DNA of 64,000 nucleotides from Phoronis australis. Taxonomy: Eukaryota > Animalia > Phoronida. The position numbers and the translations under genes were made by a program. Under the pieces are notes generated by a model. The model worked only from the letters and a program-made list of their open reading frames with translations, was not told the origin of the DNA and searched no databases. The DNA lies in the NCBI GenBank assembly GCA_002633005.1, contig NMRA01000624.1:179010-243009 (forward strand), read 5' to 3'. Positions 1-64,000 of the stretch are shown piece by piece. Position 1 is the stretch's first letter, and each line of letters begins with the position of its first letter.

Positions 1-204
1 CACAAATGCACTCTCTGAGTGCTAAACTAACTCTAACTTAGTATTTGGACATTTGAAAAGGCAGTTAAATCTTTTTATTGCAAATTCTTTGGTGTTATTA
101 CTGGAACATGTTCAGTCATTCAAATGGGGTGATTACCTTCCTGCCGCCTTTTCAGAACTGCCAAGCCTATTTAAATTATAAATTTATTGAAGAGTTCTAT
201 CATA

Positions 205-395
205 TTTTACACGTTTGACTGCTAGCATGGAAAATTCTACACGTTTGACACGCTAGTGTGGCAATTTTTACACATTTGACACATAATGTGTCATGTTTTT
301 ACACGTTTTAAACGTTAGCGTGTCTATTTTGACACGTTTTACACGCTTTTTACACGTTTGACACATTTTTGACACGTTTAACACGCTCAAGAGTG
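205..395. repeat. Imperfect tandem array of ACACGTTTGAC/TTTTACACG motifs (probably subterminal repeats of a DNA transposon)
   Basis: Repeated tttacacgtttgacac-like units at about 11-33 bp spacing. Confidence 0.6.
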
Positions 396-3300
396 TCAAA
401 TGTGTAAGCTTCTCATTCGGCAAAGCAGGTCAGTATACTAAAACGAATACTTCTGTTGTAATAGATAAGGCAAAGAAGTCAGGCTAAATTTCGGCAATAA
501 AATTTGACCGTTACAAAGCAAATCATTATATGCCCTTTATTCAACTAAAGTTCAAATCTGCAGGGTTTCTTTGGGGGGATAAATGGAAACGACGTTTAGT
601 CAAACTGTCTACCATCTACTCATTGTACCCTTGATTTAGACTAAGTTCATGTTACTTTGGGTGTACATGTATATCAAGCCTAGTAACCCCAAGAAATATA
701 CAGAGGAGACTTACAAATTAAAAATCGTTACTCCCTTAATTTATTCAAAGTTCAATCTACAAGAGGAAACAAACACGACTTAGGGGCATGCATTTTACAA
801 ATACAAAATACACCGTACGGTATTTTCAATTTGTAAAATTCCTGCAAAGGTACGTGTATGTAATAAAGTCAACCAGCAAGCCAACAGACTTTACTATAGA
901 CGCACAATGAAAAGATCATCATGCAAAAGGGCCATGAATTCCTACACACACCCAGAACAAAAGACGTCAATTATGTTTAGTTCGTGTAACAAAAACAATC
1001 AAAGGTACATATTAAGCCCAGTAACCCCAGTCTACCCTTGCTAATACCCGATATATCTTCGTCACAGAACTCTTTACCTTGATCTCTCTAAATTAAAAGA
1101 TAGCGTTAATTCAATAGCGCAACCGCATTGATAGCCGATCCCACGGGGAACTAGGTCGCAAGCTTGTCGCATAGATAACGATACAGAGATGTATCCATTG
1201 TTCGCTTTGTTTGTTTACTTATAATTAAGATAATAAAAATAATCGATAACGGGCTGATTAGCTCCTCAGGTGCAATGTTTGTGTCTAACAAAGACACAAC
1301 AAAGGAAAACAATGGAAGTGTCCCCTAGGCGACAACCATACTACGCGCTTGTCGCATGGATCTCGCAAATTAAACAATACCTTGCGATATTCATACAAGG
1401 TCATGATTCTTTGTCAAAGAGCTATGTCGTTGAATCAATCTAGATTTATAAGACAGTTGTAATCCAATAGAGAAATTTGGTTAATAGCGGATAAAACTTC
1501 GTCCGGGAAGGCTTTCCTTCGATTTAGCTAGATTAGAAGAAAGCGCTATTTCGCTAACTAAAGAACGGATATGCCTTCGTCTGAGACTGAGAACTCTTTC
1601 CTTTGATCTATCTAGATTAGGAGATATTGCTACTTCAGTTTTATCTATAGATATTTCGACTGATTACGTCCACTTTGACCCGATGCCTTCATTTTTACTT
1701 GTTAAGTCCATTTTAACTCATGCAATTAATTTTCCCCCTTTTGTCATTCTTGAACCATTTTTCAATATAACATGTATTTTGAGAGGTGTTCCGCTATTAA
1801 TCGACCGTGTGCCCCAATAAAAAAAGTTTTGTTTCAATCATTCTGTTTGACTACAGCAATTACCTCGACAGGATGCAGTATGCAATAGGCACTTGCTCTA
1901 CTTTCTGTGTACATTTCTGCATTACGTTAAAGTCGTGGACAGGTGACAGATGTAAAAACACACTGCAGCATTAGCAGGGGTTTGGTATGATTACTCGGTT
2001 ATTGAATAAAATTTCTGAAATGTTAAGTTACAACTAGAGAATTGTTACTGCATATCGTTGTCAACCTTTGTGCGTTATGCGGAATTCACGAGACGGCTTG
2101 ACATCATGAAATGAATATCAGTCGGCATGATCTGTTGAAAGCGTCTTGTACAAGTACATGTAAATGTACATGTGCAACATTCTGCTGCTGCAATACACTA
2201 CGACATGTATATCCGTGGCAAACGAGGTAAACATGTCCACGTTACATACATTTATGTTAACAAGACATTGCATTTACATTGTTTAAAGCTTTTGCATATA
2301 GTTTCCGGAAGAACATCCAGTAAGCACCAGCTGCAATTGAATATCTGGTACATATTCTCGTTTCAGCTGCCACAATAACCGGGAAAAGTACATGTATGTA
2401 TTTTTGTGGGTTTAATCTTATTGTTATCAACTTCATAATGTCCTACACTTGTTTCCTTGCATAGGAGTAAGTTGGTTAATTACTAAGCTATACTTTCGAA
2501 TAGTATTTTGCTGTGCCATCAAATTTTTATTAATTCCTTGGCAGTTTGTACACAGCGTGCTCGGAGACTTGATTTCGCTGTCACTTAAAACAAAGCAATA
2601 CATGTTTTCACACCTAAAGCATATCTCTGAAATTATATTTTTATGTTGTGTGCATTAACATATAAACAGATTCCAAACCTTCGTCGTTGGTGTCGTCCTT
2701 TCCATCGATTATTAAATGTCTTCTGTCTAGATTCAAAGGTCTTCCATTTTGATGTCTATCATTACATGCCAATCATTGAGTGTGTTCATTATAAAATATT
2801 GTATCTGTTATCGGTAAAAATGTGTCATCAATTACCAAAGACACGTCAATAATCAAACGTCAAATTATGATCTCAAACGGAGACAGTTAACGAAAGATTG
2901 GATGAAAATAGATATCAAGTAAACGTCTGAATACCAATTGAATTGCATAAGCATACTGAATATTAACGTTTATCTAAATATCGTAATACATGTATGTCCA
3001 TTTGAACCATTATTTCCAGTTTGGTGGTGGGATCCATTTTCACCCATTATGTCCCTTATAACGGTAGCAACAATAATAATAATTACATCAAACTCACACA
3101 ATTTTGATTAAAATCCATATCCAAACAATGAAAAATCAACCACGGAATTCTTCATACATATAAGTGATGGAACTTCTCAAGTAGTTTTTTCAAGACTTAA
3201 GTGAATGTGGTGCTAAGGGGATCTCGAGGCTATTTTAAGTTTGTGACAAATTTCCAATGATTTAAGGTTATTTTACTCTGAGGTGACGCTAAGGAGGCTT

Positions 3301-3449
3301 CGAGTAAGTGGATTTATGTGTATAGTGAATGAGATGCTACGATCAGATGACCTCGGGCAAGTTGCCACGGGGTCCAAAATGTATGACTGGGAGCGAACTC
3401 TAATTCAATGACTTTTTGGATGTACTGATCAACTGATTACGTTTTACAG

Positions 3450-3584
3450 CACCTCGACCGTGTGTAAATAAAGTCGCCACACATGTATGTGCTACTTTCG
3501 TACACTGGAAACTCTGCAATTACTTTAAAAGTTGGGCAAGTGACCACTGCGAAGCTTACTGCGGTTTTTGCGTAGGACCTATAG
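3450..3584 (+). CDS. ShKT-like exon A (phase 1-1)
   Basis: ttttacag|...|gtaagt; translates PRPCVNKVATHVCATFVHWKLCNYFKSWASDHCEAYCGFCVGPI; six Cys ending CxxxCxxC; 135 nt. Confidence 0.85.
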
Positions 3585-6500
3585 GTAAGTGTGTAAAGAT
3601 CACAAGGCTTGGGAAATGAAAATGAATCTTGATATACTGTACCTTTGTTAATATTTGAACCGATGACAAATTTAGCAGTAATCAGCCATTGCCAAGTGTT
3701 CCATACATGTATATACTAGTATTCGTTTTGTGTTAATGAAGTGTTTCCCTACATGTATTAGCCACATGCTGCTAAGTTTTACTCATTCATTTATGTAAAG
3801 GTTGGCGTTCTTTATACAGCTGCATTCCTTCTTCAGGACGCAGTAACATGCATTGTCAGTGCTACAATAATACGCGACCTTCCTTAATGACACCTCAGAT
3901 GAGATGTTCAGTCATACTCCACTTGTGCAGTAATACTTAACCAGCGCTAAGGAATAACAGGCAACTTTCCAATTCAGTGACGAAGTGTCGCAAATTAGTA
4001 CATTACTAATTGAATTGGACCTGAGCTAAACAAGCGTTTTGTCGACTCAAAACCTATGTTTAAGGATAAGGATAATTTCGAGCGGTTGTTTTTTTCTTTT
4101 AAGTGGCTGTTTGTTCGAACAGCGCAATTTTGTTTAGTCAATCTAATTGATCATATCACAATCAATTAGTGCATTATGCGTTGCATCGGCAGTGTTTAGA
4201 TGCAATAAGATGATAAATTAATAAAGATTTTGATTTAGCTTAGAGCATATTCTTGTTCCAGAATTAGGTTTATTATTCCAAAGCGATTGTTCGTCCAGCT
4301 TGTTCCGCAATAGTCCGCCATCCACATTTTAACTGCCCCGGTACTTTGCGATTTGCACTCAGCAAGTCACAATCCTCATCTATTTGATGCTGTAAATACA
4401 AACACAACATATGCATGTTGTACGTATTTACCTAAACATCATTCAAGAATGAATAGACTCACCGGAGACAGCCCAAGGGTTATTACATTATTTCTGCGGC
4501 GAAGGATTGTGTCTCCGATGAGTTGCCAGCAATCACTGGTACGGTGCGCAGCTTTAGACGCTCTGCGGCTGGGTTAAATGAATTTTATAGGCCTAATTAT
4601 CCCCAATTCCCGAAATAGATAAATGCAACCACTGTGGTAATAACCACAAGTCTTTAGAGTGCGACAACGTGGAGAAAGAACCGACCTGCGCCAACTGCGG
4701 TGGCCCCCACCCAGCAAACCGCAGGTCCTGCAGTCACTACACTGACTACAAAACTGCAACTATAACAAAGAAGCTGTCATACGCTCAGGCTGCTAAGAGC
4801 CCATCAAACGACCTATAGGTCCTAAGACTGGCTACGACGCTCACCGAGCTGGCGGTGGGTATAATGATAACAAAACTAGGGCTAGACTTCGGAAAGGAAG
4901 AAATCAGCCAGTTGATCGTTGATTCCATCAACACCAACTACAAAACAGATCTGATTGGCTCACGGATCCTCCAGCTGGTGAACAGACTGAAAATATACAG
5001 TATCTAAAGAGACACCTCAGGTTTCCGCCATGGCTAGCCTACTACACATTAACCTCAATGGGGCGAGAGGAAAACGGCAAACTCTAATAGAGCATCTTAC
5101 CGACGAAAAAACAGACGTAGTATCCATGAAAGAAACCTGGCTGTCCGACACCATCAAATTCACAATACCTGGCTACAGCTTTGTCCGGAGAGATCGCTCC
5201 GACCGCTCGGGCGGCGGGGTGGGCATCCTTGTCAGGCAAGGAGTTGATTTCACTCCCATAGACACAAATATGCTCAGAGCTGAAGTAGTTGCGGTTGAAT
5301 GCCGCGTCAACAGAAAAACTACTGCAGTCGTGTCAATCTACAATCCTCTAGGAAGCATTGTAGACAAGTACCTATTTAGGCACTTCACGAACTCCTATAA
5401 ACAGTGCATATGTATGGGCGATTTCAACTCCAAGCATCTGTTCTTCGGAAACAGAAAACTGACATAGCAGGCGAGATACTCTTCAACGCCGTATGAAACT
5501 CAGATCTCCACCTAGTCAACGACACTGGTGAGCCCACTTACCACCAGTGGACTGGCGCACGCCGCCAGATCCAACATCGCGAAGTCTTGGACTTCATATT
5601 CATTACCCGATCTCTACTCAGCTCAGTGCATGAATGCGAGGTTAGGACGACCTCATGAGTGACCACCTAGCGGTACACCTGAAACTAGACAACGCCAGAG
5701 GCCAGCTCGACTCCCTCCCACAAGCTTACATGCACTCATGTAAGAAAATGAATTGGCAACAATTTAAGTGGGATGTGGAGACTGACATAGAATGTACGTA
5801 GAGCCCAATCCGTACTCCAGCCGATATTGATCATGCCTCTCAAGCGTTAAGAAATGCTATAAACAACGCATTGGATAAAAACTGTACCATTGTGAAGATA
5901 CGCCCATTCACATGGCGGTGCTCAGCAGACACACTGATGCTTATCGGGATCAAACGCAAAATCAAGCGCAAGACCCAGGTTTACCCTGACAACCCGATCT
6001 ACTGTAACATCTACAATGTATTGAAAAGACGCGTCGAGAACGCTTTCAAACACGAGAAAAGGCAATCGTACATGCAATTCTGTGAGTCTCTAAATGAGGA
6101 AAGGGGTAAAGGTTTTTGGCAGGCTTTTAAGAGGATTACAGGCAGGGGCCCTCACAACCACCAGAGTGCAAAACCACTGATTCATGACAACAAAACTGCC
6201 TCCTTTAACTCAGACAAGGCCACAGTGTTTGCTACAGAATACCCACAGGATGCACGAAGGCCCGATCTTCTGCAATATGACAAAACGCCTCGTAGACTGT
6301 GCAAAGGTCCGAAAAGCACATCTGTTCAATACCCTTAACACAATTACGCAAGACTGCGGGGATGACCACGAAATGCTTTCTGAAATAAAGCCATTCGAGA
6401 TCAGGCGAAAACTTTCTAAGTGTAAGAAAAACAGCAGCCCAAGAAACGATTCCACATAACCTGGATTTGTCGTGACGACTTGATTGGGACCTCAGGGGTC

Positions 6501-9500
6501 TCACGCTCCACCGGATTATCTACACTAACTTGAAAAGGTTTCGTCCAGTCACGCGTTGTGGGTCATAAATCGAGATAATGATACCCACAGCTGACGCGAC
6601 AAGCAGAACTACTTTCGTTTACTTCATTGGTGCACTAACTGGAGAAATTTAGAATCAGACGTTTAAACAATATCCGATCGTCAACTTTATTCGGGAGACT
6701 TAAATCTCAATGTAGTTTACGCAAAGACGATGCGCGATTTTTAGAGGTGTATTGACGATGATCAACTACGAACTTATTTGCTCTCCGTTTTAAAGTTGAT
6801 CATCGTCAATACACTTCTAAAAATCGCAAATGGTCTTTGCGCAAACTACATTGAGATTTAAGTCTCCCGAAAAAAGTTGACGATCGGATAGTGTTTAAAA
6901 GTCTAATTCTAAATTTCTCCAGTTAGTGCACCAATGAAGTAAACGAAAGTAGTTCTGCTTGTCGCGTCAGCTGTTGGTATCATTATCTCGATGTATGACC
7001 TACAACGCGTGACTGGACAAAGCCTTTTCAAATTAGTGTAGATAAGCTGATGGAGCGTGAGACCCCGAGATCCCAATCGAGTCCTCACGACAACTCCACG
7101 TTATGACCAAGGTTTGGGCACTGCGCTACTGGTAACTGTTCTGAAGGGGTGACGGGGCAGTTTAAAGACAACGGAAAAAAACTGTCCCGACGGGGCAGTA
7201 TAAAGACAAACATGTAGTAGCATGACAGCTGTTGCCAATAAGCCGGATTCATGCGAATCAAAATCTATGCTGACTCTATTAAGCCAGCTTCACACCTAAG
7301 ATGTCAATAATACTGTTGCCATCCAGCCAGCTTCTCGTCTCCACAAGAAGAACACCACCACCACCACCAGCCTACCAGGTCCTGCCGCTCGATCCACGTT
7401 CACACCAACCACAGCAAAGACAGAAGGCGAGATCCACCGATCTTGCGAAGCTGTCCGCGGGCTTCGCCCTCATCTACTCTACTGTCTCTCTTCAATAACA
7501 TATACCAAGCACTTCCAGAACAAGTTGTTGCATGTCAATCTGGGAGTACATAGCGTTTCTCGTTTTAACTGTGACTGTAGCACTTCCACTGGTTCTATGC
7601 ATGTATGATGACATCGACACCAATAAATGCCAATATTATACCACCAACATTTTCATAAGTCAATTGGTAATATGAGCCGTAAATGCCTCTCAACAGGTCT
7701 GATCCTTTCACGTAAATCTGCGCGCATGATCGTCAAGCCGTTCACAGTCTCAGTAGATAGATAGACAGACAGATTGATGGATAGATACATGTAGATAGGT
7801 AGATAGATATATAGATAGATAGATAGATTGGTAGTTTATTTAGCCATTCATAATACAAATAGTCTTGCATCTAAGCAAGTCTTTTTCCTACTTGAGAAGA
7901 ACAACATAAAGTGAAAAGAGTGGGACTTGTAGTAGTCGAAGGCAAACAACTAAACTAAGGTTTTACTAGGACTGCATGTACATGTATAATAGTCGTTGAT
8001 TACTTTAGAAATTTCAAAACAAGGCAAGGAGATTTTCAAAAGGCTAAGGAGCCGCATGCATAAAAGCCACCTCTATCTTCACGTGTAGTTAGTCAAGAAT
8101 AAACTAGGTATTCGTTTCAACAATTTATCTCACTACATGTTAGAAACATAAACCTGAGTTGAGTATCAACAATATGATTATATATCTAATTAAAATGTGT
8201 ACATGTACAAGGAATAAAACTACCGATCCAATAATGGGAGAAACTAAAATAAGGTAGAGATTAAGAAAGATCGCTTAGGTAAGTAGAGGTGAAATGCTCT
8301 AGGAGCACACTGATTGCGGACCAGTAAGGTAGTCATAATCACCAACTGCAATCGTAGAAACAAATGTTTGTGCTTTAATTAATGAAAATATTATCTGGAA
8401 ATAAGTTGAATTACATACCAATGAGAGCCTACCATATCATTTTGACCTCATCATGCCAGATCAAAATGTCTTAATCCCGTCCATAGGTGGCGCACTCAGG
8501 TTGCTGGGGGGCTATAACCACACTTTTCCATTGCTGTGCCGCCCATGTCATCACGATCGTAAATTGCTGTAAAATATCATTAGTTGTTGCTTTTAGCTGA
8601 CGTAAGCATAGACCTGACGACGGTTTTGAGGGCGAGACAAGCATTGGTTGACCTCAATGGATTAGGCCGGTCGACACGTCTTTGCCATGTAGCCGGTTGA
8701 TTTAGGGAAATCTAGGGGAAATAATTGTATCCATTGGTGTCAATATCAACAAACAGAACTAGTGAACGTGTTACAATACCATTTAAAACGTGTGACACAA
8801 ATTACTCCCAGCTTTGCATGTTTGGAAATGTTCCCGGAGTGGCTGGTGGATGGTATTATTAAACACTTCTGTTAATAATAATACATGATTGAGCGACCAA
8901 TAAGCGTACCGATGGTTTTAATTTGATTTTCCAGGGAATGGTGAATACCATAAGACAGGAGACGTGGATGCAGTTATGAACGCAGCAAAAGTGGAAAACA
9001 AAGCTGATTTGTTGAATCTTTCCTTGATTACAATCGCATTAGCTAACGGCGCAGCCACGATCTTTCTACGTACTCTGTAGAAACCAATTTTGTGACTTCC
9101 AATCCCAGGTTTTTAGTTCCATGTACTAATCAACAACGTATTAAATGCTGAGTCTGAATTACCAAAATAGGAAATATAATCTCTGCAATTTGAAAGCCTT
9201 CCTTCATGAGAAGACGTGGAAAAAAGAGTGTATTCTCAAGTCGTCTTTTACATGCAGGTAGTTGAGTTCAACCTATAATCAACTATACAGTACCAATGGC
9301 CTCTTCGTTTCAAACGTAGACAAGCTCTGATGGAACCTAGCTGCATTACGAAATATTTTAACAATGATCCCTGAAACGTGGCCACTTGCTCAATCTTTAG
9401 TTTACTTGAGGAAACCTGGAATTCCATGTTTATGTCCATCTTCTAACGAAGCCCATACACTGCACCTCAACCATCTGAACCATAGGCGTATCTAGGGGTA

Positions 9501-18500: not shown

Positions 18501-21500
18501 CATATCCGTAAGGTGTGTTGAAATTGTGTATCAGTGCTAGAGTTACCAAAGGACAAATGCGTTTAAGTTCGGCTAAGGGTTTTGACTATCGCTTACACCT
18601 GATTACACGGCGGTAAATAATTTCCAATAATAAGACAAGTAATAACTACTGAGTCGACTCCATCTGAAGATGTGATACACAATTTCAGTAAAATTGTCTG
18701 TGTTTGTCAAGTCATTCTTCTTCAAAAAACTTCAGACCTATTGGTGTTTTAAATAATTTATTTTTCAATGTGAAACAAATTCTGATTAATTAAATATCAA
18801 CTCTTTTATTCAAATACCATTTTCCAGTTTTCTGTCCCTAATAGCACAGTGCGAGAGCGCGTTTATAGACGTCGGGCAGGATACTATTTATTAGGATGAG
18901 ATGGTCAAAATTACATTGTACATGTAGGCTCGCATAAGCACTGGAGTATTGAAACACTAAATGTTCGTGTGAGAGTTGCCTCACTAGTTATTCTAATGCA
19001 TTGATTAGTTCGTGTCGTGTTTCAGCCACGACCCCTCTTGTGACCCCGACTGAAGGTAGGTGTAAATCAGTCTATTCGCCATTTTGTGTAACCGAGTTGG
19101 TGCTGGTTGTTTATTTCTTCATAGAGAAATTCCTGAAAGAATTATTTCACTGCCAAAAGTTTATGTCTTATAGATAAGTAGAGCACACGCCGGGGCATTT
19201 TGTTACCAACTGGGTCATACATGTAAATTAACTTGTTGTAGTGTGTTTCACACGCACCTGTATTCAGCGTTGATCTTCAGTAGTTGCAGATGAGGCTTGG
19301 GCGCCAAGTCTTGTTGTTTGAAACTGTCTGATGGGGAACTGGAAGTGTCGTAACATTGAATAGATTGTGCAGAGCGTTCTCATCTAGGTTATATAAGTCC
19401 AGACTGACCAGTCCACAATCAATCTGTTCATTGGTTTTCCACACAGTCTTCAAACTGGTAAACTTATTCTGTATTGCCTAAAACGCCCTTAGAATCACAA
19501 CATAACAAATCAACTAAATATATGTACGCAACTGTCCAGAAATCATCCACATGCTAGTCTGCGTCGTTACATGTAAATGGAAATGACCTCAGATTATCTA
19601 TCGAAAAAAGTTACCCCCTTGGCTGAACACAGACTTATACTAGCGTATAAACGCGTTAAAATGTTAGAGCAACGCGATAAATTGTCACTTGCAGACAAGT
19701 CTCACGTTTAAACTGGAACGTATGCAAACTTGAATACAATTGGAACACAAATTGTTGGCCACGTTTCCTGTTCGTTCATCAAAAAATCCTCCAGATGGCA
19801 ATGTAAAAAGTAACTTCCTAAAATTGCACCTAGATGGCATCACTTTACGGGGTAAGAGCACAATTGGCAGAGTTCGAGGCCACCTTTAGTTTAAACAAAT
19901 TTTCATTGTATTAACAATAAATTTTGACTTGTGACGAAAAACTGATAGCGTTTTACAGCATCCCGACCGTGTTTGGATAAACTCGAAGACTGTTCTTCTC
20001 ACGGAGATGTCGACACACTCTGCACAAAGTATAAAGGGTGGTCAATTGTCAACTGCGAAGCTTACTGCGGCTTTTGCAAAAGACCGTCAACAACCACAGG
20101 TACTGTAAGTGTGAAGCGATCGTCTGGGTTCTGAATGGACAAAAGTTTCTCGAATTCTTTGGTAATGTGAACGTTTAAAGACGCTCATAGGAATAACCAG
20201 CCATAGCCGAATTCAACATGTATGCACGTACATGTATATAGAAGAAGTATACATATCCGAATTCATGCGTTTTTGTGGAAATCGTTTATTAAAGTATTTT
20301 ATAATGAGGCGTATGCAGCTAAGATTCACTCGTATGTTGAGGTCGGTGTCTTGTTTGCAGGCACACCACTTGGTGAGGATGCAGAAACATACGTTGCCCG
20401 TGGAATACAATTTTTTGCGAGCAATTATTCGAAGTGATGTCTCAAATAAGATGTCTTGTTATGCGTGACGCATTTTCTACTTAAAATGCATCTACTGAGG
20501 AATAATAGGTAGCAGTACATTTCAGTAACGAACTGCAGATTGTTTAATGTTTTATGTTCGTTGAAAGAAAGAAAGCTAGTAAATTGTTAATTGAATCGGA
20601 CCTCAATAGTGTATCAACACGTTTGTTTGTCTTAAACCTGTTAATTTTACCTTCCCATTAAAACCAGGTAAAGTGGTAACACTTTTCAACTGAAATCGAC
20701 TGAGATTAAATTCAAGTTGCAGCTTGAACACGTGAATGTACATGTATGCTCTACATCTAAGACTTTTTGAACCCTTTAGCAAAAGTCTTCACACTTTTAT
20801 AACCGGCAGGCAAACGAATTTGAAAGCTTTCTGAGAAATTCCATATCACTTACAGCAATCTGGGCTCAAAATAAGGATCTTAGAAAGAAAATCAGTCAAG
20901 TGATTACACTTGTGAGGACTGCCTAAACTTTAACGCTCTGGTAATCTATATATACATGTACCTGTACGGCTACAAACGATGATAAAATTAGCATAAACCG
21001 CAGGCATAGTCCAAAGCTCACAATACTATGCTCATATTTACATGCAGAACAATGTGGTAGTGTCCAAAATCAAGAGTTTTAATGAATTTTAATTATTTGG
21101 GTATTTCGCAATTAGCCGCGTAATGCCAAGTTTTACTCGTATGTGCATTGTGGTATCTTTTGTACAAAAACATTCCTTGTTGACCATCCATCACGTTTCA
21201 GTGTCCGTGGAACACGATTTTACCCGACTCTGTGGGAGCAATCACCCGAAATGATATCTCAGACATATTACTAGACAAGCGAGTCGCCCCAGACATGGCA
21301 TGTCTGGGTCGACACACTTGCCTAGTGATATGTGCAGTATAGCACTGTAACCAATATCAAGGAGTAGGGACACCAGTCTAATTCAATAACAACATGTTGC
21401 AAATTTATTGTTTCATATTCAGTGAAAGATAAACAAGCGAGTACATTATTAATTGGACTGAACTTGAATAATCGTATAATGTTTGGAAATGTAAATCGAA

Positions 21501-21811
21501 CCGTTTGATTATTACTCAATATGAGTTCTAGATAGAAAGGTGCTGGCAATTAACAAAGGCATGTCTATGATCACACACCAAGCAAAGAATTCAAAGGGAA
21601 ACAGTCAACGAAAATTCAAATCAAAACAAGTATCAATAAACGTATTCTCATCTAAGGCATAAATTCAGTGGACTGCACGATATTACAGTTTATTAATCGT
21701 CTATTCGGAGATTGTAATACGTCCAATTTGACTCACTATTTTCATTTTCATGACTATGTTCATTTTCAACATCTATGTTCATTATAACTGTATAAAAGCA
21801 ATAAAGAGAGC

Positions 21812-21857
<46 letters not shown>

Positions 21858-24800
21858 TTATAAATAGCAATAGTTTTAGTTGTAGCAACAGAAACAGCAG
21901 CAGTAGCAGCAGTAGTAGTAATAAAAAACAAAAATAACTGTAACGAACTCAACAAAGATATTAATAACATTCGTTCATAGACAATGGAAAATTCAACAAT
22001 GTGTTATAAGAAATCGATATTGCCAAGAGTTTTTCGCCACCTCAGAGCCTCAAAGAAGGTGGTGGTAAGACGAGCTCGATGCTAACGTAAGTTAACACGA
22101 GTTTTCGCTGAATTGGCAATATCTTTGATCATGTAGCGCTCAACTGATGACGTTTTACAGGACCGAAACCGTGTGTGGATAAAGTAGAAAACTGTGGTTC
22201 TTACGGACACGTCAGCACACTGTGCACGAGGTATAGAAGTTGGGCAAGTGTAAACTGCGAAGCTTACTGCGGCTTTTGTATAGGACGGTCAACAGCGACA
22301 GGTGAGTGAGAGGATATCAATTGGACTGTGCATTGAAACGGCTAGCTTTTACTGCTTTACAGGTGAGATTTAATTTAGTAATTCGTGTTCATTGCAATCA
22401 TGCTTGTGGTGGTTGGATATTGCTCTTGCGAATGGTGAAGTGAATTTCATTGAAACGCTGTAATGCATATAATTTGTGGGTTATCTGGGTGCAGAATCGA
22501 CGTCATAACATGTTGGGCACATCCATATATGCTCAGTCCTCCACCTCAGAAGCTCACGCAGAACACCTAGACTAACTGTTCCAGTAAGATGCTGATTCTG
22601 GATTTTCCGCCAGATTCCTCTTATTGTAGACTTTGATGCGGTTCTCTTGTCTACACCAAACTGTCACAATCTTTCGACTGTTTCCCCAGTTTCCTCTTCC
22701 CGCTTCTCATCCAGAGCAGTAAGCACCTTTGCCTCACCCATCTCCAAGGCTCACTCCCGCAACTTTGTCAGCCCTTTTGTTACCGACAACTCTTGCATGA
22801 CCCGGCGAAAAAATACAGACAAGGGATTCCAGGTGGGTTTTATGTGGCTCTGCTGTAGTTCGCGCAACATGCTTTGTGAGTCTGTCACAATGGCCGTCCT
22901 GTGAATTTTTGCGAGCATAGCCATCTTAAGTTTACCGCGATTATGCTGAACTTCTTGTTAAAGTTATCGGACTAATGAGTTACAGTACAGTACCCACGAG
23001 AGATACGTTCGGCGAATAGTTTACTGTGGTAGTTATTTTGGAATTTTCGGTTGAAAGAAAAGAAGTTCGCTTTGTGCACTGTTCCACCGAATCGTTATCC
23101 CAAGAATGCTGTCCATTTTCACAAGGCTTTACCGTTTCTTGTGATGGTGTAGATGTTCCGGGGCATTATTTTCTGATTCCTCGCTTCACTGCCGTGGGTT
23201 CAACCTAGATGTTTTAAGCCCTGCACACTGACGTCCAAACAGGTACATGTAACAAGAGACGTCTTCTTAGGCCCATTACTGTTTCATGCGAATAGTTCTC
23301 GTTATGTTTCACGATATCCTCTTCAATCCATTATGCTACTTTTCTCTAATAATATCGACAACCATACTTGTCGTTGTCGTCGTCCTCTCTGTCGATCATT
23401 GTTGCGTTTCGCCACATGTCGATCTCTAAACTGCACTCATTTTCATCTCTAGCTTTTAATTCCCAATCGATGCGTGTATATATATATCAGTTCGCGGTAG
23501 AAAGGTGGTGGCAATTCACAAAGGCATGTCTATCATCAAAAATCGAATTATATCTCAAAGTAAAACAGGCAACCAACGTTGGAATAATATAGGTGTTAAT
23601 GAACATTTTCCCACTTAAGATCGAAACACCCTGAACCTCATTAATCTATTGTGTATTAACGTCTTTTGAGATAGTGTACTAGGTCTTTTTCTACATGCAT
23701 TTGTTTTCGTTTTGATGACCACGTTCATTCTAAGCCTTTCGCCCCCTATAATAATAATAACGATTAAAGTTATAACTTCTAGAAATTCAGAAAGAGTATT
23801 TTAATATTAAAATAACATTCAAAACAATAACAATTATTTTTTACTACATTTCAAAGAATTAAACATCGCAACTTGCTTTTTCAATACTTCAGAGAAGGTG
23901 AAGGTAAGTTGAGCTCTCAGCCACCGCGGGATAACACGAGTTTTCACTGAATTAACTGTAAATTTTATAACGTAGCGATTTTCTGGTGACGTTTACAGCA
24001 GCCCGACCGTGTTTGAATAAAGCCGACAACTGTGCTTCTTACGGATCCGTCGACACACTCTGCACGAGGTATAAAAGTTGGGCAAGTGAAAACTGTGAAG
24101 CTTACTGCGGATTTTGCATAGGGCAATCAACGACAGGTAAGTGTGAGGAGATCACCTATGTTTTGAATGGAAACGGAATCTTAAATCTTCTGTTAGTTTA
24201 CACGGATAGAAGCGATAAAACATGTAAGTTTAGCAGTAACTGAAGCCATAACTAGATTTGCATGTAGGAATGCGTACCAATATCCTAATCAAGCGTTTTA
24301 TGACCATTTATTATTTGAGCGTTTCGCGATGAGAGGCATGGTTGCAAACTTTATACGTATGTGAATGTTGGTGTCCTTAATTGTAGAGGCATATTCTTTG
24401 TTGAGGATACAGGAGGATTCAGTGTCTGTGGAATTTTTGGGACTCGAGAGCTTATTTCCTAAATGATATCTCAGATTAGATGTTCTATCCAGCTTGCCTC
24501 ACGTGCGCACTAATATGTAACAATTCAGTGACGTTCTGCAAAGTTTCCTTCGGTGAAAGATAAACAAACGAGTAATATATTATCAATTAAATCGGCCATG
24601 AATAGAGCAAAAAAATTGGAAACAAAACTTAACTGAAAGTGACTGTGCCTAAAATGAAGTTGCCTATAAAACACGTGTATATGCACTTGATCTAAGTGTT
24701 TTTCCAAACCCGTTTTGCGAGACTATTGTTACTGACAGGCAAAAGACACCAATGCCGGGTTGCATGAAACAGTCCCAATTAGGGACTCAAAAAAGTTCCC

Positions 24801-27800
24801 TAAATCTTTTTCCTGTTTGCGTCTTTGTTTACCCACAGATGTAATCGTTTCCTGTCATTTAATCTTTATCATGATCTCCCCTTTTGATTAAAGACATTTT
24901 ATAACAATATCAATAAAATTGAGCCCTGAATTCAATGAAAATAACTAGGCACATGGTCCTTAAGTTAGGAGTTTTGCATGAAGAGATCCCTATACATGTA
25001 AATTTTCGATAATATTGAGAATTCAACGTCCAGTTCACTCTCGATTTGTATGGAAGCCAAAACTTGACTTAGTAATGAAACTAAAACAGCATCAGAAAGG
25101 ACAGTCAGTGTTTTCACAAGTCCACAAACACGCAGTGGATTTTGGGAACTTAGCCGAGTCCCAGTTTGGGACTATTTCATTCAACCGGCAACTGAGTTCC
25201 TTGCTAATTTTCATATCTGCAGATCTTACGACATTTTTTATCAAAATCAGGAGTCTACCAGAAAGGAAACCAGTCAGTCATTCAGTCAGGGTACAATGAG
25301 TGCAGTAATTTGGTGGCTCTACCATCAAGAATGTTTTACATGTACATGTATGTACACTCACACACACGCACACACACACGCACACACATACATGTACATA
25401 TAAATGCAGATATAGTTAAGTAGTTATACGTATACAGCTACATCTACATCTACTGATACATGTTTGTGTATACATATAAACATACCCACATTCATATATT
25501 GCTTACATACAGAGTACGTGATCTTCATGCATAAGTATTTAATGGTTGTATTATTAATATTGAAATAGAATTTAAGAAAGACATTCTTTTGTAGCTATGT
25601 TCCATATTTAGCTAACCCCTTTTTCTTCAATGATGTAATTTCACACAGCGATATTCAACATACATGTATGAGCCACAAACAATACTGTCCAACACGTAGA
25701 TACTGGCATAAACGAGATCCGGTATGGACTGATCGGCGAGTGCACGTCAGTTATGGGTAGTGGAACAGGACAATGTAATTTCCACTACGTTTCGTTTGGA
25801 CACTGTGTTGAATATATCTTCTCCAGAAGTGGAGTAATATGAGGAGTAATACTTTTTCCTGTTATATTTTTTCATCTTCATCGTGGAAGTTTTCATCTCC
25901 AACGGCCACGACATCCATTGCTTTTCACTCCTCTCCACTAATGTCACAACATAGGCCATAAACACCTTTATTGTGGCATATTGTGTTTTGCAATTTTTTG
26001 ATTTTCTGCATTCCTGTGTTTTTATTACGATTTTAATTCATCATGCCTCTTTGTCGTTGTCGACGTCGTTGTTACTGACATGGCTTAAGTCGGCTTTAAA
26101 CTGTGTAACGATCAATTAATCTGAAATTACTCATACAACCGAGTTCATCATGTTGGCTTAAAAAACCATGTTTAATAGTTAAACCAGTACTGCTTTATTC
26201 GCTGTGCGGACCAGGGATCGTGTTAAATGTGCTACTGGGGCAACAGAAATTGGAATTCAGTATGAAAAATGAAACAGTGTTTGATAAGATCGCAGATGAT
26301 GTTCCCCATCCTCAATGGTTACGACTACGACGCCTGCACGTTCAATGGGTTTTTGTTGAGTCATAATTACACATTCGAAGCTTAACCGTCTACTTTTATA
26401 TTTACATCGTCGAAGGTTGAAATTAGTCCTCCTTGCAGAATTGTGTACAGTAGGTGATGCAAACTGCGGAACCGTGTAGCTGCCCAATTGAACACACGAA
26501 GTACATGTACTGTATAACGTACACATCTTAATTCAGGTTCAACCTAGATCGGACCAGGTCTAAAGATAAACCTGATATCAGATCTGAGGAATATAAAACT
26601 CGATGGTGAAATTGAAACTGATTTCGGTTATGTTTGAACAGGATTCAAACCAGGTTTAATTATACAACTGATTTCAATGTTAAAGCACCTTTGGGAATAA
26701 AAATTATCTCTAAAATTACTGTGAGTAAAATGTATGATTACCAACATAACCTTTCAACCACCTTTGTTTATTCGGCTGATTACGTCCACTTTGACCCGAA
26801 ATTTCCATTTTCACTTGTTAGATCAATTTTGAATCCTGAAATAAATATTTACCCGTTAGGTCAAATTTGAACCATTGACATGTTCTTGGGATCAGGTTAT
26901 TTTGCGAGGTGTTTTTGTTTAATTGGCCCTATACATGTATGTATACTCAAATGGTACTATGTTTGTCATAACCGTCCTCCATGTATATAACCACAGCCCA
27001 ATCAACTAATGTATTTTCCGTTACCTCGACAGCGTGTAGCTACAATGTACAAAACACACATGTGCCTATTTCAGTGCAGATCTATACACTACGTTCAAAT
27101 CGTGAACATTTTTCAGATGTAATAAAAACTTGCCGCACTTGCTCGTGTTCGGTATCATCATATGGTCATGGAATAAAAAATCCGAAATATAATTTTACGA
27201 CAACAAATGCAAAAAACGTACCGAGAGTGGCGTACATGAAGTAATATCCCACGAGGCATTATTCCGCATTTCGATACGAGGAATAATGTCGTATTTATCC
27301 CATCCGCTTCGAATTCCTAAGTTTCTTTCAGTTTTTCGCAAATTTTATGCTTCACTCTGACAGTTCACTTGGCGGATCGCGTATGTACATGTATGTACTT
27401 GCGTGTTAGGTTGAAAGTTTTCTTTAGTAAAAGAAACAGTTGTAAATGTAACGACTTGTTACTTGAAAATAGATAACAAAGATGAAAACAAGGGTAACTT
27501 TGCATTGAACTTGTAACATCGCCTGAAAATAGTTCAATAACAACAATATGTGATATTGACGACGAATCGGAGCCTGAGTTGCAGACGATATAATATATAG
27601 AAATTGAAATATAATTGTCATATAAGTAACAGTCCTGTTCCAGGTGTTACGATTGAGACCTGGTGGCACGCTAAGTGGTATTTACACTGCTACAATTGAA
27701 TTATTTTAAGCTATTTTCCGAAACATTGATGATCTAACCGGCTAACGACGTCGAGTCGACATTGACCTACATTTTGAACCTTCAGGTTCAGAGGTCAATG

Positions 27801-54800: not shown

Positions 54801-57800
54801 ACTATTTCAACCTATGTGGAAACTATTTTCACCTGGGTGGAAATTATTTCAAACTAGGTGAAAACTATTTTCACCCGGGTGGAAACTATTTCAACCTAGG
54901 TGGAAATTATTTTCGCCTGGGTGGAAATTGTTTTCACCCAGGTGGAAATTATTTTCACCTGGGTCCGAACTATTTCGACCGAGGTGGAAATTATTTTCAC
55001 CTGGGTGGAAATTATTCTCACCCGGCTGGAAATTATTTTCCCCCGGCTGGAAATTATTTCAACCTAGGTGGAAATTGTTTTCACCCGGGTGAAAATAGTA
55101 TTCACCTAGGTTGAAATAATTTCCACGCAGGTGAAGATAGTTTCCACCCGTGTGAAAATAGTTTCCACCCGAATGAAAATAGTTTCCACCTAGGTTGAAA
55201 TAGTTTCCACCCAGGTGAAAATAATTTCCACCTAGGTTGAAATATTTCTTCCTAGGTGGAAAAGGAAAAATAGAAAATTAATAAGCTAAAATAGCGATGA
55301 TACTTTCGGGCCACCGTAGATAAAGGATATATGTTGAACACATTAGAAAATTAATGAGATTGTCACTGTCTCTTACATGTAACAGTGTTCAAAGAAATCT
55401 ACCTTACTGTATGTGTCTTGCCACCATAATGAATCATTTTCCACAATCAAATTCAATCACAGGGAAACTTCAAGAAAAAGAAAGGTTGAAAACCTCTCCC
55501 AGTTCCAAATATTCAATAATAAATGGGTCTGGCTACCTATTCTTAATTCGTTATTTATGGTAAATAATCTTTAGTTTAGGCCAGAGAAAAAAATCTTACT
55601 TGATAATTTTGCAGTACTAGCTGTCGCAATCTAAAAGGTACTGTTAGTAGTTTTTCCTGCACGTGAGTGAACTGCTAAGCCTATTTTCAGCCTCTTTTAT
55701 GTGAAAACATGAGCATTGTTTAAAATTTGGGAAATATAAAAAATGGAAATATTGCCCGTGCTCTGTAATTCATAAATGTCGAAAATTCAAATGTTGTTCA
55801 GATTTCAGTATCTCACAATTTTGAAGATTCTTGGATTGGAGAATTTTTAGCGTAGTAACATTTTTACAATTCCAATTATGTGCTATTTAAAACAGGGAGC
55901 GTCAAAAGAAATTTAGCTCTACGGTAAATAAGACGCTATTCAATTTCAAACAAAAATACACGTATTGCCAACATGACCATTCATTTATTTTCAGATGGGC
56001 TGAACTATAGTATTAAGGATGATAAAAATGTTTCTATGTTTCAAATTGTTTGAAGGCAACTGTACAGTGCAATCAATGCTAGTAATGATGCTTATTTTGC
56101 TGAACACTTAGATAATATGAAATTTCACCTGTTGGTCACACTGTGGGCTAAAGTGAAAAGCATTTTGGTTATGTGTTTCAGTTAAAAGGATTACTGTAAC
56201 AAGGTGTTTAGATGAAACGGCATTCAGGTTGACAACGATTTGCTATTTCCGGTACGGTGCACGCTTGCAGACATACATGTATTTTTTAAAGTTTACCATT
56301 AAAGTTGGGCTCGACATTTGTGTTTCCTGGTCAACTCAAGGAAGACATTGAACTATTTGTATGTAAGATACACTGTATAAGGCGACTGATTATCAACAGT
56401 TAACAAAGCACGCTACCACATATTCAGGTTGAAATTTGTAATGAAATCATCTCTGCCTCCTAATCATGATTGTTTGCTGTTACATGCTAAAAGAGCAAAC
56501 TACCACTTTGCCATTTACAAACGAGCCTTGCAACAGCATGTCAGTGCACCATCTTCAGTTGGTAATGGGTGGCTTTTGGAACAGGGTAGTCAGAAGTTCC
56601 ACTGGATGACTTTGTCTAGAAAATGTTATTGGACAGTGTATAGGAAGTGGGAAAATGTGCTCTTGTTTGAAGTTGGGAATTCCATAATTACTGTCGAGAT
56701 TATGTAAACACGGTGTTTCAAGAAACATCTTTTGATGACAATAATGATGATATAAATGATGATGGAGTGGATGAAAATAACATAAGTGTGGGCTATATTG
56801 TTAAAGAACTTGATTTTTGGTAGCCTGATAGAAAGAAACATTTTATCGTGCTGGTAACTATCGATGAAGTCAGATTTTTGAGGTCACATTTCTCGAAAAC
56901 GTGCAAGACAAACCTTGGGATTATTTAAATTATAGTGCTTAATGACATTAAAGCACCAAAAATATCTTGCCCTCAAAAAAGTAACCACGGAAGTATATTT
57001 CTAAGCTTCTTAGAGTCCAAGGACAATGGCATATGACGGCGAATTTAGGACCACTCCGACTATCGATGTGCCCTTAGTGGTAATTTTAGTTTTTTTACGC
57101 TTACCTTTGTATCTTCTGAAGACCTCAGCGGATTTCCAAAAAAAATTAACTGTTGGTTAGGTATTAGTGAGATGGCGCTATCTTCCTGTTTGCGGGTGGA
57201 TTCGAGGTACTTTTCGCCACGGGGTGGCTAATTTTACTGTTTTAGTTTGCTAATCTATCAACCAAACCGCTCAGGTAATGATTGGGAAATTTGACTATTT
57301 GTTTTACTTTGAACAGGATGGCTGAGGATGACCTTCCGACTTCGGCTACTGCGGTGCCTCTTAGGGGCAGTTTTGTTTGTTTTTGGACCCATGACTGTAA
57401 CTCCCGGCTACTAAACGCTCTACTGGATTTTTACTAAATTTTGCCATCCGGCGTATTTATACGAAGTTGAACACGGACGACGACAATTTTCGGACGAATC
57501 GAACTGCAGGTGTGCCCCCTAGTGGCAATTTTTAATATGGAAAATAGGCATCTATTAGTGGGGTAACGTTATTCTCCGGTCTTCGGTTTGATGCGTGGTA
57601 TTTTGTGCCACCTAGAGGCCATTTTTACTGCTCTCAAGTATGTTGGCGTCTATCTTCTGTCAACATAACCATTCTAAGGATTGTTGTGGAAATTGGCATA
57701 ATACTATATGTTCCCTAATATAAAGAAGAGGACTGATAATGGTTCATACTATAAATGTGTTTAAAAGTTCAAAGCTTTGTTATTTTTAATCCAAATTTTC

Positions 57801-62427: not shown

Positions 62428-64000
62428 NAACACCTTATTATTTTGAATTAGCTAATGCAAGAAAATATGAGACTTGAAACAGAGACCCACGAAAGTGTGC
62501 CAAAGCCCCATTATCTTCTTTTGCAAGCTTTTAAATTCATACCTGAGCACTGACTTCATTTGGTTCTGAAGGCAAAATTCGACTTCAAAGGTTCTAGTTG
62601 CGAAGAGATTCCGTGCAGGAGATACAGTTGCTCGAACAAAAGTCGCGTTGCAATGACTTACAATGTTTAAGCTCCGCATTGCGCCATTTTAACAATCTGC
62701 TGCACATGAGCTTCGCTTTTTGGAATGAGTAGCTCGTCATATAGTGGCTGCGAAAACATTACAGCATCCTGGCATATGCAATGATATCGATACTGAAGAA
62801 TTGTTTGTTTACTGGATGAGCTCGTTTCCATGTGTACACTTCATTTTTCTGACCAATAAGAAGACTGGTCTAAAGCGTGTTAGTAATGCTTTACCGCAGG
62901 CCTCATACAGTAAACGTTTGACGCGGTATTTCAATAACAAATATGACTGCTATCCAATGTGGTGACCCACCAAGCACTTCCTGAACAACTTGCTGCATGC
63001 CATCGGGAGCAATTAACGTTTCACGTTTTACCTGTGATGACACCAATAATCCAGTAGTACCACTTCAGGTTCATTCAATCTGTAAAATTAACCTGGTATG
63101 CCTCTCAACTAGCCAAGTCCATTCACTCAAACCTGCTTGCATGCTCGTGAGGCCGTTCACAACATCACCGGAAGTATGCTTGCGTAAGCTGAAGCAGAAT
63201 ACTCCGGGAGTACACTGTTTGCGGACCAGTAAGACAGGTCAACTTTTTCAGTGGCCTTCGAATTCCATTTGGTTTTGTCATAGTCAACAGGTGCCATTGA
63301 CTTATCGCAAGCTCCGCCCCCTTGCGAAATGTCGACAAACAAACAATAACTTTTACCCGGCAACGTGTTGTTTGTCGGGTAAAATGTCGACTTGTAAACC
63401 GAGGGTGTGTCAAGAATGCTGTATTCTGATTGGTCGGATAAGCCATCATTCACAATCCTGGCGATACATGTACTGTATGTCAATTGTAGATACACATGTA
63501 TGAGTTTTACTTACTGGAAAGATTATCTGTAAATAAGTCGAATTACATAAGAGAGCGAACCATATCATTTTGACCTCATCACAGCAGGTCAAGATTTGTT
63601 GATCTCTTCCCGATCGTGAATTACTGGCAGCATCGTCACCATGTGCTGCTTTTAGTTGACGTAAGCGTCTTGAAGGCCGAGCACAGGCTAGTTGAGACGT
63701 CTTTGCCATGTTGCCAGTTAATTTAGGGTGCCCATTTGTTTCAATATCAACATAACTAGCGAACGTGTTGCACTACTACATAATGTTAGGTGTGACGCAC
63801 ATTGCTCCCAGAATTACATGCTTTGAATTGCTTCGAGTGTCTTGTGGATGGCATTTGTATACCTTCTCTCAATTACAAGTGTATTGTTGAGCGACCGATA
63901 AGCGGACCGCTGGTTTTACTTTGATTTTCAAGGGGGTGGTGAGGACTATTCCCGAGGAGTGGTAGCTATGGACGAAGCAAAAGTGGATAACGGAGCTGAT

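What the first reader, a model, noticed from the sequence alone, without database searches (positions are those of the whole stretch)
420..9010. 5' region is a collinear, deleted paralog of 32-64 kb; a LINE bridges a deletion of about 19.7 kb that removed the CAP module
Seen: about 420-4030 matches about 32000-36470 (exon A corresponds to exon F), and about 4040-4440 matches about 42870-43280 (the intron holding the micro-exon). The LINE follows at 4440-7503, and sequence from 7504 matches 62969 onward. The two LINE flanks therefore correspond to sites about 19.7 kb apart in the intact copy, spanning all CAP/EGF/ShKT exons. Inference: a large duplication followed by a retrotransposon-associated deletion left a ShKT-only derivative, either a separate gene or extra exons recruited into this gene.
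Basis: partly seen in the sequence, partly recalled or inferred. Interest (0 to 1): 0.75.

Follow-up and report, generated by a model that had tools for sequence, protein, structure and literature searches.

The report
Expressed ShKT-only gene from transposon-linked deletion
One of two duplicated copies of an animal gene lacks the whole CAP-domain block, likely deleted when a mobile element inserted at the break; RNA reads show the shortened copy spliced to its own last exon, predicted to give a membrane-anchored chain of ShKT domains, a clear example of a known way new genes arise.

Summary
Real, and mostly as described. 430-9008 is a collinear paralog (introns about 82% identical) of an intact-looking (ShKT)6-CAP-EGF-ShK-like gene at 19-64 kb. 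It lacks 6.4 kb (ShKT exon G) and 19.65 kb (CAP, EGF, last ShK-like exon). RNA settles the main question: exon A (3450-3584) is spliced over the insert to its own stop-containing last exon at 8935 (79 and 45 reads in 2 of 3 runs). That exon is homologous to 63933+ and has a GPI-like tail. So the block ends a transcript of its own; it does not mainly feed exons into the downstream gene. The 'LINE' is composite: a separate ~180-bp high-copy repeat, a 5'-truncated LINE without reverse transcriptase, a 650-bp palindrome, then a repeat family's natural 3' end at ~7490. The insert sits inside a 7-bp motif (GTATTTC) shared by both deletion ends (p about 0.01), without target-site duplication. A deletion tied to an insertion is likely; that the LINE itself caused it is about even. 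Duplication, domain loss and LINE-linked deletion are all known mechanisms.

The parts
430..4425 (+). Paralogous block 1 (introns around micro-exon and ShKT exon A); counterpart 31985-36477 and 42863-43269
2367..2393 (+). 27-nt Thr-rich linker micro-exon, spliced to exon A (58 and 44 reads); preceded in RNA by an E-like ShKT exon, inferred to lie upstream of the window
   Evidence: joints and loose end at 2364; (29 of 30 letters match exon E)
3450..3584 (+). ShKT exon A, six Cys, paralog of exon F, expressed
4030..4035 (+). Junction of deletion 1 (about 6.4 kb, removes ShKT exon G); inside one DNA contig 3946-4455
4261..4270 (+). Relic of micro-exon 43081-43101: acceptor kept, donor lost by an 18-bp deletion; skipped in the listed RNA joints
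4426..4600 (.). Unclassified high-copy repeat with internal inverted repeats; forms the left junction of deletion 2 (right end approximate)
   Evidence: (summed depth 9,027-29,847; loose end at 4426)
4600..6454 (+). 5'-truncated, disabled LINE: end of ORF1 (two zinc knuckles, by eye), APE endonuclease, linker; stops just where reverse transcriptase would begin
   Evidence: PF03372 E 8.9e-7
6455..7105 (.). 650-bp near-perfect palindrome (89% self-complementary), high copy; occupies the place of the missing reverse transcriptase
7106..7490 (+). 3'UTR-like repeat segment (tandem unit of about 135 nt in other copies) ending in the family's natural CT-rich 3' terminus
   Evidence: depth 3,028 at 7458-7501 falls to 27.6; loose ends at 7480-7483
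7491..8934 (+). Paralogous block 2: last intron, counterpart 62930-63932; includes a separate repeat at about 7810-8290
8935..9160 (+). Terminal exon: 47 codons to a stop at 9078-9080, hydrophobic GPI-like tail, ATTAAA at 9140 (3' end approximate)
19026..43101 (+). Intact copy, N-terminal array: ShKT exons B 19959, C 22161, D 23999, E 30909, F 35850, G 42071 and linker micro-exons 19026, 29319, 43081
43267..43273 (+). GTATTTC, left end of deletion 2 in the intact copy
46592..62312 (+). Module absent from the upstream copy: six CAP/hinge exons (46592, 47937, 48502, 49288, 51710, 52604), EGF-like exon 59735, ShK-like exon 62196
62926..62932 (+). GTATTTC, right end of deletion 2 in the intact copy
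63933..64000 (+). Start of the intact copy's terminal exon, homologous to 8935-9008, runs off the window

Best explanation
The block at 420-9160 is the spliced, expressed 3' end of a paralog that lacks the CAP-EGF-ShK-like module, likely lost by a 19.65-kb deletion coupled to the insertion now sitting in the junction, and it is predicted to encode a GPI-anchored chain of ShKT domains. SHOWN: collinear paralogy; exon A spliced to a stop-containing terminal exon homologous to that of the intact copy; insert placed exactly between the two break points. INFERRED: (1) a (ShKT)n-CAP-EGF-ShK-GPI gene was duplicated in tandem; (2) the upstream copy lost exon G, a linker micro-exon and the CAP module; every ShKT, linker and terminal exon junction here is phase 1, so the frame survived; (3) the big deletion came later than the duplication, in one event with a retroelement insertion: the 3' end primed at the right GTATTTC site, the 5' end joined at the similar left site; (4) the ~180-bp repeat and the palindrome were added at the 5' junction and in the reverse transcriptase region, in unknown order. 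Odds by step: loss rather than gain 0.95; own main transcript 0.88; deletion tied to an insertion event 0.7; the LINE itself as cause 0.45-0.5; protein functional 0.8; GPI anchor 0.75.
For: Paralogy; pooled intron difference 0.180 over 3,334 columns. Intact copy: 18 exons, 607 codons, 0 stops, 17 of 17 introns GT-AG; CAP exons hit solved CAP proteins in order (E 2.2e-5; weak). RNA: 2393>3450 in 58 and 44 reads, 3584>8935 in 79 and 45 reads, GT..AG, sense strand, runs X5 and X6; the three-exon chain has 0 internal stops. Depth on exon B is at most 15 and 22 against 106 and 63 on exon A, so B is not in proportion to the A transcript. Constraint: 5 of 5 coding indels are multiples of 3 against 19 of 78 in introns (p 0.0009); neutral survival of the three exons over a full branch 0.4%. 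Link to insertion: other copies of the 3' repeat end at 7480-7483 (13 X1 contigs, 14 X2 contigs, 21 X5 reads, agreement 0.39-0.57) and depth drops to single-contig level; flank homology starts at 7491; one contig bridges that junction (7428-7747); no target-site duplication at either junction; both deletion ends share GTATTTC (p 0.007-0.016). Timing: at least 15 of 385 sites private to this 3' piece (shown rows only) and 6 stops or frame changes in about 1.85 kb (read), against about 10% per lineage since duplication. Hallmarks of L1-mediated deletion (tail, no target-site duplication) as in PMC7058536 and PMC4859970 (passages).
Against: The left junction is not LINE sequence but a more abundant repeat, so a one-step LINE event needs a template switch or a second insertion at the same spot. 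Reverse transcriptase is missing, and the endonuclease half and the 3' half are not shown to be one element. Microhomology above 5 bp between the two host ends is the mark of microhomology-mediated end joining (PMC4229983, passages); in L1-mediated deletions the reported microhomology is 1-5 bp and lies between host and L1 5' end (PMC7058536). dN/dS of A/F plus terminal exon is 0.68, not different from 1 (p 0.41, 62 codons). Neutral survival over the last 40% of the branch is 9%, so selection after the deletion is only weakly shown. No relative with ShKT array plus CAP was found (0 of 161 by local search; 0 of 62 by Pfam), so there is no outgroup for polarity. No first exon was found for the intact copy in 9200-19025 and its splicing was not tested. 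The fold model of exon A is low-confidence (pLDDT 61). GPI is judged by hydropathy and eye only.
Confidence: 0.6

Rival explanations
1. Same gene outcome, but the LINE is a bystander. The deletion arose by microhomology-mediated end joining at GTATTTC, or with the ~180-bp repeat, or between two elements that had inserted separately at the two sites; the LINE was already at the right site or arrived later.
For: 7-bp identity between the two host ends. The left junction belongs to a different, more abundant repeat. The palindrome next to the missing reverse transcriptase shows that insertion with adjacent loss happened at this spot independently of the LINE's arrival. A LINE of several kb would be most of the last intron, an easy target for a break that spares the terminal exon (inference). 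The copy had other independent deletions.
Against: If the deletion came first, an insertion has to hit the junction within about 15 bp of a 2,285-bp intron, about 1% without target preference. If both breaks fell inside elements, the shared host motif is unexplained unless both elements prefer it.
Confidence: 0.28
2. One gene with two alternative 3' ends. Either the two blocks share upstream exons (exon A can skip its terminal exon and continue to exon B), or the block is misplaced by the assembly and is spliced from window exon E.
For: The exon before 2367 matches window exon E at 29 of 30 letters, above the 79% of A against F. Homology stops at 430 ~ 31985, just downstream of E. No signal-peptide exon was found for the intact copy. 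No listed contig spans the repeats at about 9500-13960, and 31 joint rows were not shown.
Against: The same motif region is nearly identical between A and F too (alignment). 1-430 holds a tandem-repeat element (summed depth 298 at 200-866) that can hide further homology. 79 joint reads against depth 106 leave little room for another acceptor. Exon B depth is 0.14-0.35 of exon A.
Confidence: 0.13
3. The upstream copy is a transcribed pseudogene decaying since the deletion.
For: dN/dS 0.68, not significant; exons are no more conserved than introns (0.79 and 0.74 against 0.82). Three separate losses. Exon A has the longer branch (0.23 against 0.14). The in-frame indels may predate the deletion.
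Against: Open frame, six Cys, splice sites and hydrophobic tail all kept; accurate splicing at depth 63-106 in about a fifth of two runs; neutral survival 0.4-9%.
Confidence: 0.15
4. Gain, not loss: the ancestor was a ShKT-only anchored gene and the downstream copy received the CAP-EGF-ShK module in its last intron.
For: The module starts and ends in phase 1. ShKT-array relatives without CAP are common (0 of 62 with CAP). PMC6409789 (passages) favours independent recruitment of ShKT modules into CAP proteins.
Against: It needs an unrelated insertion in the other copy at exactly the same site (about 1%). The upstream copy keeps a relic of the linker micro-exon that precedes CAP.
Confidence: 0.05

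Closest known systems
LINE-1 insertion-mediated (target-site) deletion (PMC7058536, PMC4859970, PMC4229983; passages read)
   Same: A retroelement 3' end abuts one break point, the element is 5'-truncated, there is no target-site duplication, and kilobases of host DNA are missing.
   Different: The 5' junction is made by another repeat; reverse transcriptase is gone; the tail is CT-rich, not poly(A); the microhomology is between the two host ends; the product is a retained, expressed paralog in an invertebrate, not a disease or tumour allele.
Molluscan CAP-ShK type II proteins, with Conus Mr30 and Tex31 (PMC6409789, passages read)
   Same: The intact copy has CAP followed by an EGF-like and a poorly recognisable ShK-like domain.
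   Different: It carries six canonical ShKT repeats before CAP and a GPI-like last exon; the passages read describe only C-terminal Cys-rich domains. No tree was built, so membership is untested.
Multi-ShKT proteins with Thr/Pro linkers of molluscs and other lophotrochozoans (multiShKL of PMC6409789)
   Same: The derivative has the same ShKT subtype and linkers, without an enzyme or CAP domain.
   Different: It arose here by subtraction from a CAP gene. Only 6 of 161 relatives have a hydrophobic C-terminal tail (many are partial predictions).
Microhomology-mediated end joining deletions (PMC4229983, passages read)
   Same: 7-bp exact identity at the two deletion ends.
   Different: A 3-kb composite insert sits inside the microhomology.

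Membership tests
LINE insertion-mediated deletion | Inserted retroelement lies between the two break points | tested here: met
   Flank homology ends at 4425-4443 and resumes at 7491
LINE insertion-mediated deletion | Natural 3' end with tail at one break point | tested here: met
   Other copies end at 7480-7483; CT-rich tail, not poly(A)
LINE insertion-mediated deletion | No target-site duplication | tested here: met
   Scan of both left junctions against the right one found none at the junctions; at most TT is repeated
LINE insertion-mediated deletion | LINE 5' end joined directly to the far break point | tested here: not met
   About 180 bp of a more abundant repeat intervenes
LINE insertion-mediated deletion | Both ends belong to one element | tested here: inconclusive
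   Reverse transcriptase absent, palindrome in between; no contig or read shown links the halves
LINE insertion-mediated deletion | Endonuclease target motif at the site; pre-insertion allele | not testable with these tools
   No genome held; no empty-site loose end among the 24 rows shown, 253 not shown
APE-type non-LTR retrotransposon | APE endonuclease | tested here: met
   PF03372 E 8.9e-7, above cut-off
APE-type non-LTR retrotransposon | Reverse transcriptase | tested here: not met
   None recognisable by eye in six-frame translation of 6440-7520; the copy is a relic
ShKT domain (PF01549), exon A | Six-Cys pattern and profile match | tested here: inconclusive
   Six Cys invariant with the other six modules; Pfam E 0.013, 16.4 bits, under the 20.9 cut-off; module G passes at 29.1; fold model weak
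ShK-type channel blockers | Lys-Tyr dyad (PMC6409789) | tested here: not met
   Exon A has no Lys-Tyr pair; exon B has one (by eye)
CAP superfamily (intact copy) | CAP domain | tested here: met
   Exon 48502 hits venom allergen 3, Ves v 5 and GLIPR1 chains (best E 2.2e-5); exons 49288 and 51710 hit CAP proteins weakly and in order; tested exon by exon only
CAP-ShK type II | Placement in the type II clade by CAP-domain tree; signal peptide | not tested
   No CAP relatives retrieved; first exon not found
GPI-anchored protein (derivative) | Hydrophobic C-terminal tail after small residues and a polar spacer (rule recalled) | tested here: met
   15-residue hydropathy up to 1.97 at the C-terminus; N-A-A then polar spacer; no predictor run
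GPI-anchored protein (derivative) | N-terminal signal peptide | not testable with these tools
   The 5' exons are inferred to lie upstream of the window
HINE/Helentron (repeat at 4426-4600) | Subterminal inverted repeats, 3' palindrome, T flanks (PMC4067079, passages) | tested here: inconclusive
   A 14-bp inverted repeat and a short palindrome are present (folding z -1.73), but spacing and flank strand do not fit cleanly; no Rfam match there

The most novel reading that the evidence does not exclude
A germ-line LINE insertion in an invertebrate cut out a whole CAP-EGF-ShK module between two copies of the same 7-bp target motif and so created, in one step, a retained GPI-anchored ShKT array that is now expressed more strongly than its parent in these samples: a new protein architecture made by retrotransposition-mediated deletion, with parent and product side by side.
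Probability: 0.33. Interest if true: 0.55.

Novelty: new member of a known kind. Interest (0 to 1): 0.36.

Why it matters
It is a rare readable snapshot of modular protein evolution: parent, product, break points, the element in the junction and RNA proof of the new splice are all in one window. It shows that ShKT-only proteins can arise by subtraction from CAP-ShK genes, not only by adding ShKT modules, which bears on how such families are read. If the LINE caused it, it would be a constructive case of a mechanism mostly documented as damage in human genomes (papers read cover human disease and cancer). None of my 7 literature searches on these topics listed an equivalent case, but the library is partial and I read passages only. 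Each step is a known process and the function is not shown, so interest is moderate.

Tried and rejected
No whole genome is held, so upstream exons and repeat copy numbers could not be read directly. Summed contig depths are used only as relative signs of repeats. Homologue searches with a CAP exon found nothing. The protein atlas gave no answer. The metagenome scan for the 4426 repeat found 0 matches. Rfam over 4300-7600 gave only two miRNA-model hits on the palindrome, both under gathering score, read as hairpin artefacts. The run search listed no RNA holder by index; RNA came from runs with the same species label. Run X7 has no reads on the unique parts of the block: silence or absence cannot be told apart. 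X2-X4 are the same sample as X1 and may be the assembly's source, so they are not independent. A near-repeat AACATAT at 4406 and 7497 was rejected as a target-site duplication because paralog homology continues past it. The 3543>20054 joint (10 and 3 reads) was rejected as cross-mapping of E-like reads. The 10215>13401 splice was rejected as the intact gene's start: it lies in a high-copy repeat and 133 of 137, 111 of 115 and 162 of 162 sense-strand reads differ from the window at 10202. Positive selection was considered because exons are no more conserved than introns; not significant (p 0.37 against introns). Allelic haplotypes were rejected (18% intron difference). The structure model was weak and its fold search empty. 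Earlier scan notes: none returned. One cited paper was not held. No supplements were opened; those of PMC6409789 may hold CAP proteins with N-terminal ShKT repeats.
Full report
1. Observation. A self-comparison of the window gives same-strand, collinear matches 430-3994 ~ 31985-36403, 4035-4265 ~ 42863-43084 and 7504-9008 ~ 62969-64000, at 70-84% BLAST identity. Ten intron segments differ at 18.0% of 3,334 aligned columns, too much for alleles. Finer alignment extends the first block to about 4030 ~ 36477 and the second to 4425-4443 ~ 43269-43285. The upstream copy therefore lacks two segments of the downstream copy: 6,385 bp holding ShKT exon G, and 19,644-19,660 bp holding the CAP module. 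Exon A pairs with F in a tree of the seven ShKT modules (91/93, not starred) and G is more distant from both, so G predates the duplication and was lost.

2. The downstream gene. Eighteen exons from 19026 to the window end read as 607 codons with no stop and 17 of 17 GT-AG introns: linker, ShKT B, C, D, linker, E, F, G, linker, six CAP/hinge exons, an EGF-like exon, a ShK-like exon and a terminal exon from 63933. The ShKT modules share six Cys and match PF01549 (4 of 4 scanned; only G above cut-off). One CAP exon hits solved CAP proteins at E 2.2e-5; two others hit them weakly, in order. The last ShK-like exon had no Pfam match; the label rests on its Cys pattern. The ShKT, linker, EGF and terminal exons all begin in phase 1, so whole modules can be dropped without a frame shift. 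Its first exon was not found in 9200-19025 (4 weak candidates, against 2 in a control region), and its own splicing was not tested.

3. RNA. Three RNA runs of the same species label were laid on 200-20199, about a fifth of each run. In X5 and X6, 2393 joins 3450 (58, 44 reads) and 3584 joins 8935 (79, 45 reads), both GT..AG and on the sense strand; X7 shows none. The exon at 8935 is homologous to 63933+, runs 47 codons to a stop and ends in a hydrophobic tail (15-residue hydropathy up to 1.97) after N-A-A and a polar spacer, with ATTAAA at 9140. I read this as a GPI signal (rule recalled; no predictor run). Before 2367 the reads carry an E-like ShKT exon end (67 and 65 reads; 29 of 30 letters match E, at most 23 match the other six modules). 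I infer a paralogous E just upstream of the window. Depth on exon B is at most 15 and 22 against 106 and 63 on A, part of it cross-mapping. So the block ends a transcript of its own. A minor long isoform cannot be excluded: 31 joint rows were not shown.

4. Is the derivative functional? For: 5 of 5 coding indels between the paralogs are in frame against 19 of 78 in introns (p 0.0009; alignment-dependent). A neutral simulation keeps all three exons intact in 0.4% of trials over the full branch. Against: only 9% over the last 40% of the branch; dN/dS is 0.68 on 62 codons, not different from 1; exon A lacks a Lys-Tyr pair; its fold model is weak (pLDDT 61; no fold match). I put function at about 0.8. 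The most likely role is a surface-tethered array of ShKT binding modules without the CAP domain; its ligand is unknown and nothing here shows toxin activity.

5. The insert. It is composite. (a) 4426 to about 4600 is a high-copy repeat: summed contig depth 9,027-29,847 against 197-417 on the LINE body, and other loci start matching at 4426. It is unclassified (partial fit to the HINE description in PMC4067079). (b) About 4600-6454 is a 5'-truncated LINE with two zinc knuckles (by eye) and an APE endonuclease (E 8.9e-7), with 6 stops or frame changes by my reading. (c) 6455-7105 is an 89% self-complementary palindrome at very high depth, where reverse transcriptase should be. (d) 7106-7490 is a 3'UTR-like piece. 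Other copies carry a tandem unit of about 135 nt there and end at 7480-7483 with unrelated flanks (13 X1 contigs, 14 X2 contigs, 21 X5 reads); depth falls from 3,028 to 27.6. One contig bridges this right junction (7428-7747). The left-junction contig ends 30 letters into the repeat, one short of the tool's bridging rule. That (b) and (d) are one element is plausible but not shown.

6. Mechanism. The insert lies exactly between the break points; an independent hit within about 15 bp of a 2,285-bp intron would be about 1% (estimate). [quoted passage not shown] Both deletion ends in the intact copy carry GTATTTC (43267-43273, 62926-62932); random pairs reach 7 bp in 0.7-1.6% of 20,000 trials. 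The insert sits inside that motif. This favours one event joining two similar sites. The natural 3' end at the right break and the missing duplication match L1-mediated deletions (PMC7058536, PMC4859970; passages). The foreign 5' junction does not, and microhomology above 5 bp is also the mark of end joining (PMC4229983; passages). I therefore say it works like an insertion-mediated deletion but do not file it as one: about 0.7 for coupling to an insertion, 0.45-0.5 for the LINE as cause. The 3' piece differs from other copies at 15 or more of 385 sites (rows shown only; 100 rows hidden), against about 10% per lineage since duplication, so the insertion is likely younger than the duplication.

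7. Polarity and relatives. A profile of the seven modules found multi-ShKT proteins of molluscs, a nemertean and a bryozoan (names) and 339 library proteins at E up to 0.001, of which 150 were listed. None of the 161 held matches the window's CAP region (no positive control), and none of 62 mid-length ones has a Pfam CAP domain. There is thus no outgroup. Loss is preferred because gain needs the coincidence above and because a relic of the pre-CAP micro-exon survives upstream. PMC6409789 (passages) describes molluscan CAP-ShK type II proteins with EGF-like and poorly recognisable ShK domains after CAP, multi-ShKT proteins, and frequent gene and domain duplication; the passages mention no N-terminal ShKT array and the text has no 'GPI'.

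8. Verdict. A real, RNA-verified domain-loss paralog with a transposon composite in the junction. All steps are known kinds of event. Interest 0.36.

Noticed in passing
window 14742-17125 and 17127-19512: A 99.1% identical tandem copy around a single N at 17126. One DNA contig runs from 14741 straight to 17127 and depth on the first copy is 0-5, so it is most likely a false duplication by the assembly. It doubles the linker micro-exon (16639 and 19026).
   Followed up: yes
window 34648-34674: The intact copy's counterpart of the expressed micro-exon 2367-2393 has AT in place of the GT donor, so each paralog has lost a different linker micro-exon. Its splicing was not tested.
   Followed up: partly
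window 6455-7105: 650-bp element self-complementary over its whole length (89%), very high copy, no clear target-site duplication, next to the loss of the LINE's reverse transcriptase.
   Followed up: partly
window about 9700-13960: High-copy repeat region with a spliced transcript (10215>13401, GT..AG; 70, 63, 57 reads in all three RNA runs); nearly all reads come from other copies. Possibly a DNA transposon with a spliced leader.
   Followed up: no
window 3920-3975 and 36329-36384: About 56 bp of intron identical between the paralogs amid 18% difference; a conserved element or a gene-conversion tract. Introns overall are as conserved as the coding exons.
   Followed up: no
window 19870-42250: ShKT exons B-G were amplified by tandem duplication together with flanking intron sequence, still alignable at 65-78%.
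   Followed up: partly
window 1534-9537: Run X7 has no reads on the unique parts while X5 and X6 do: tissue- or stage-specific expression, or absence of the gene in that individual.
   Followed up: no
window 54470-55262: Minisatellite array (about 21-nt unit) in an intron of the CAP module, with an open frame by chance.
   Followed up: no
window about 7810-8290: A further multi-copy repeat after a TAGA microsatellite, in the upstream copy's last intron, without a match in the intact copy.
   Followed up: no
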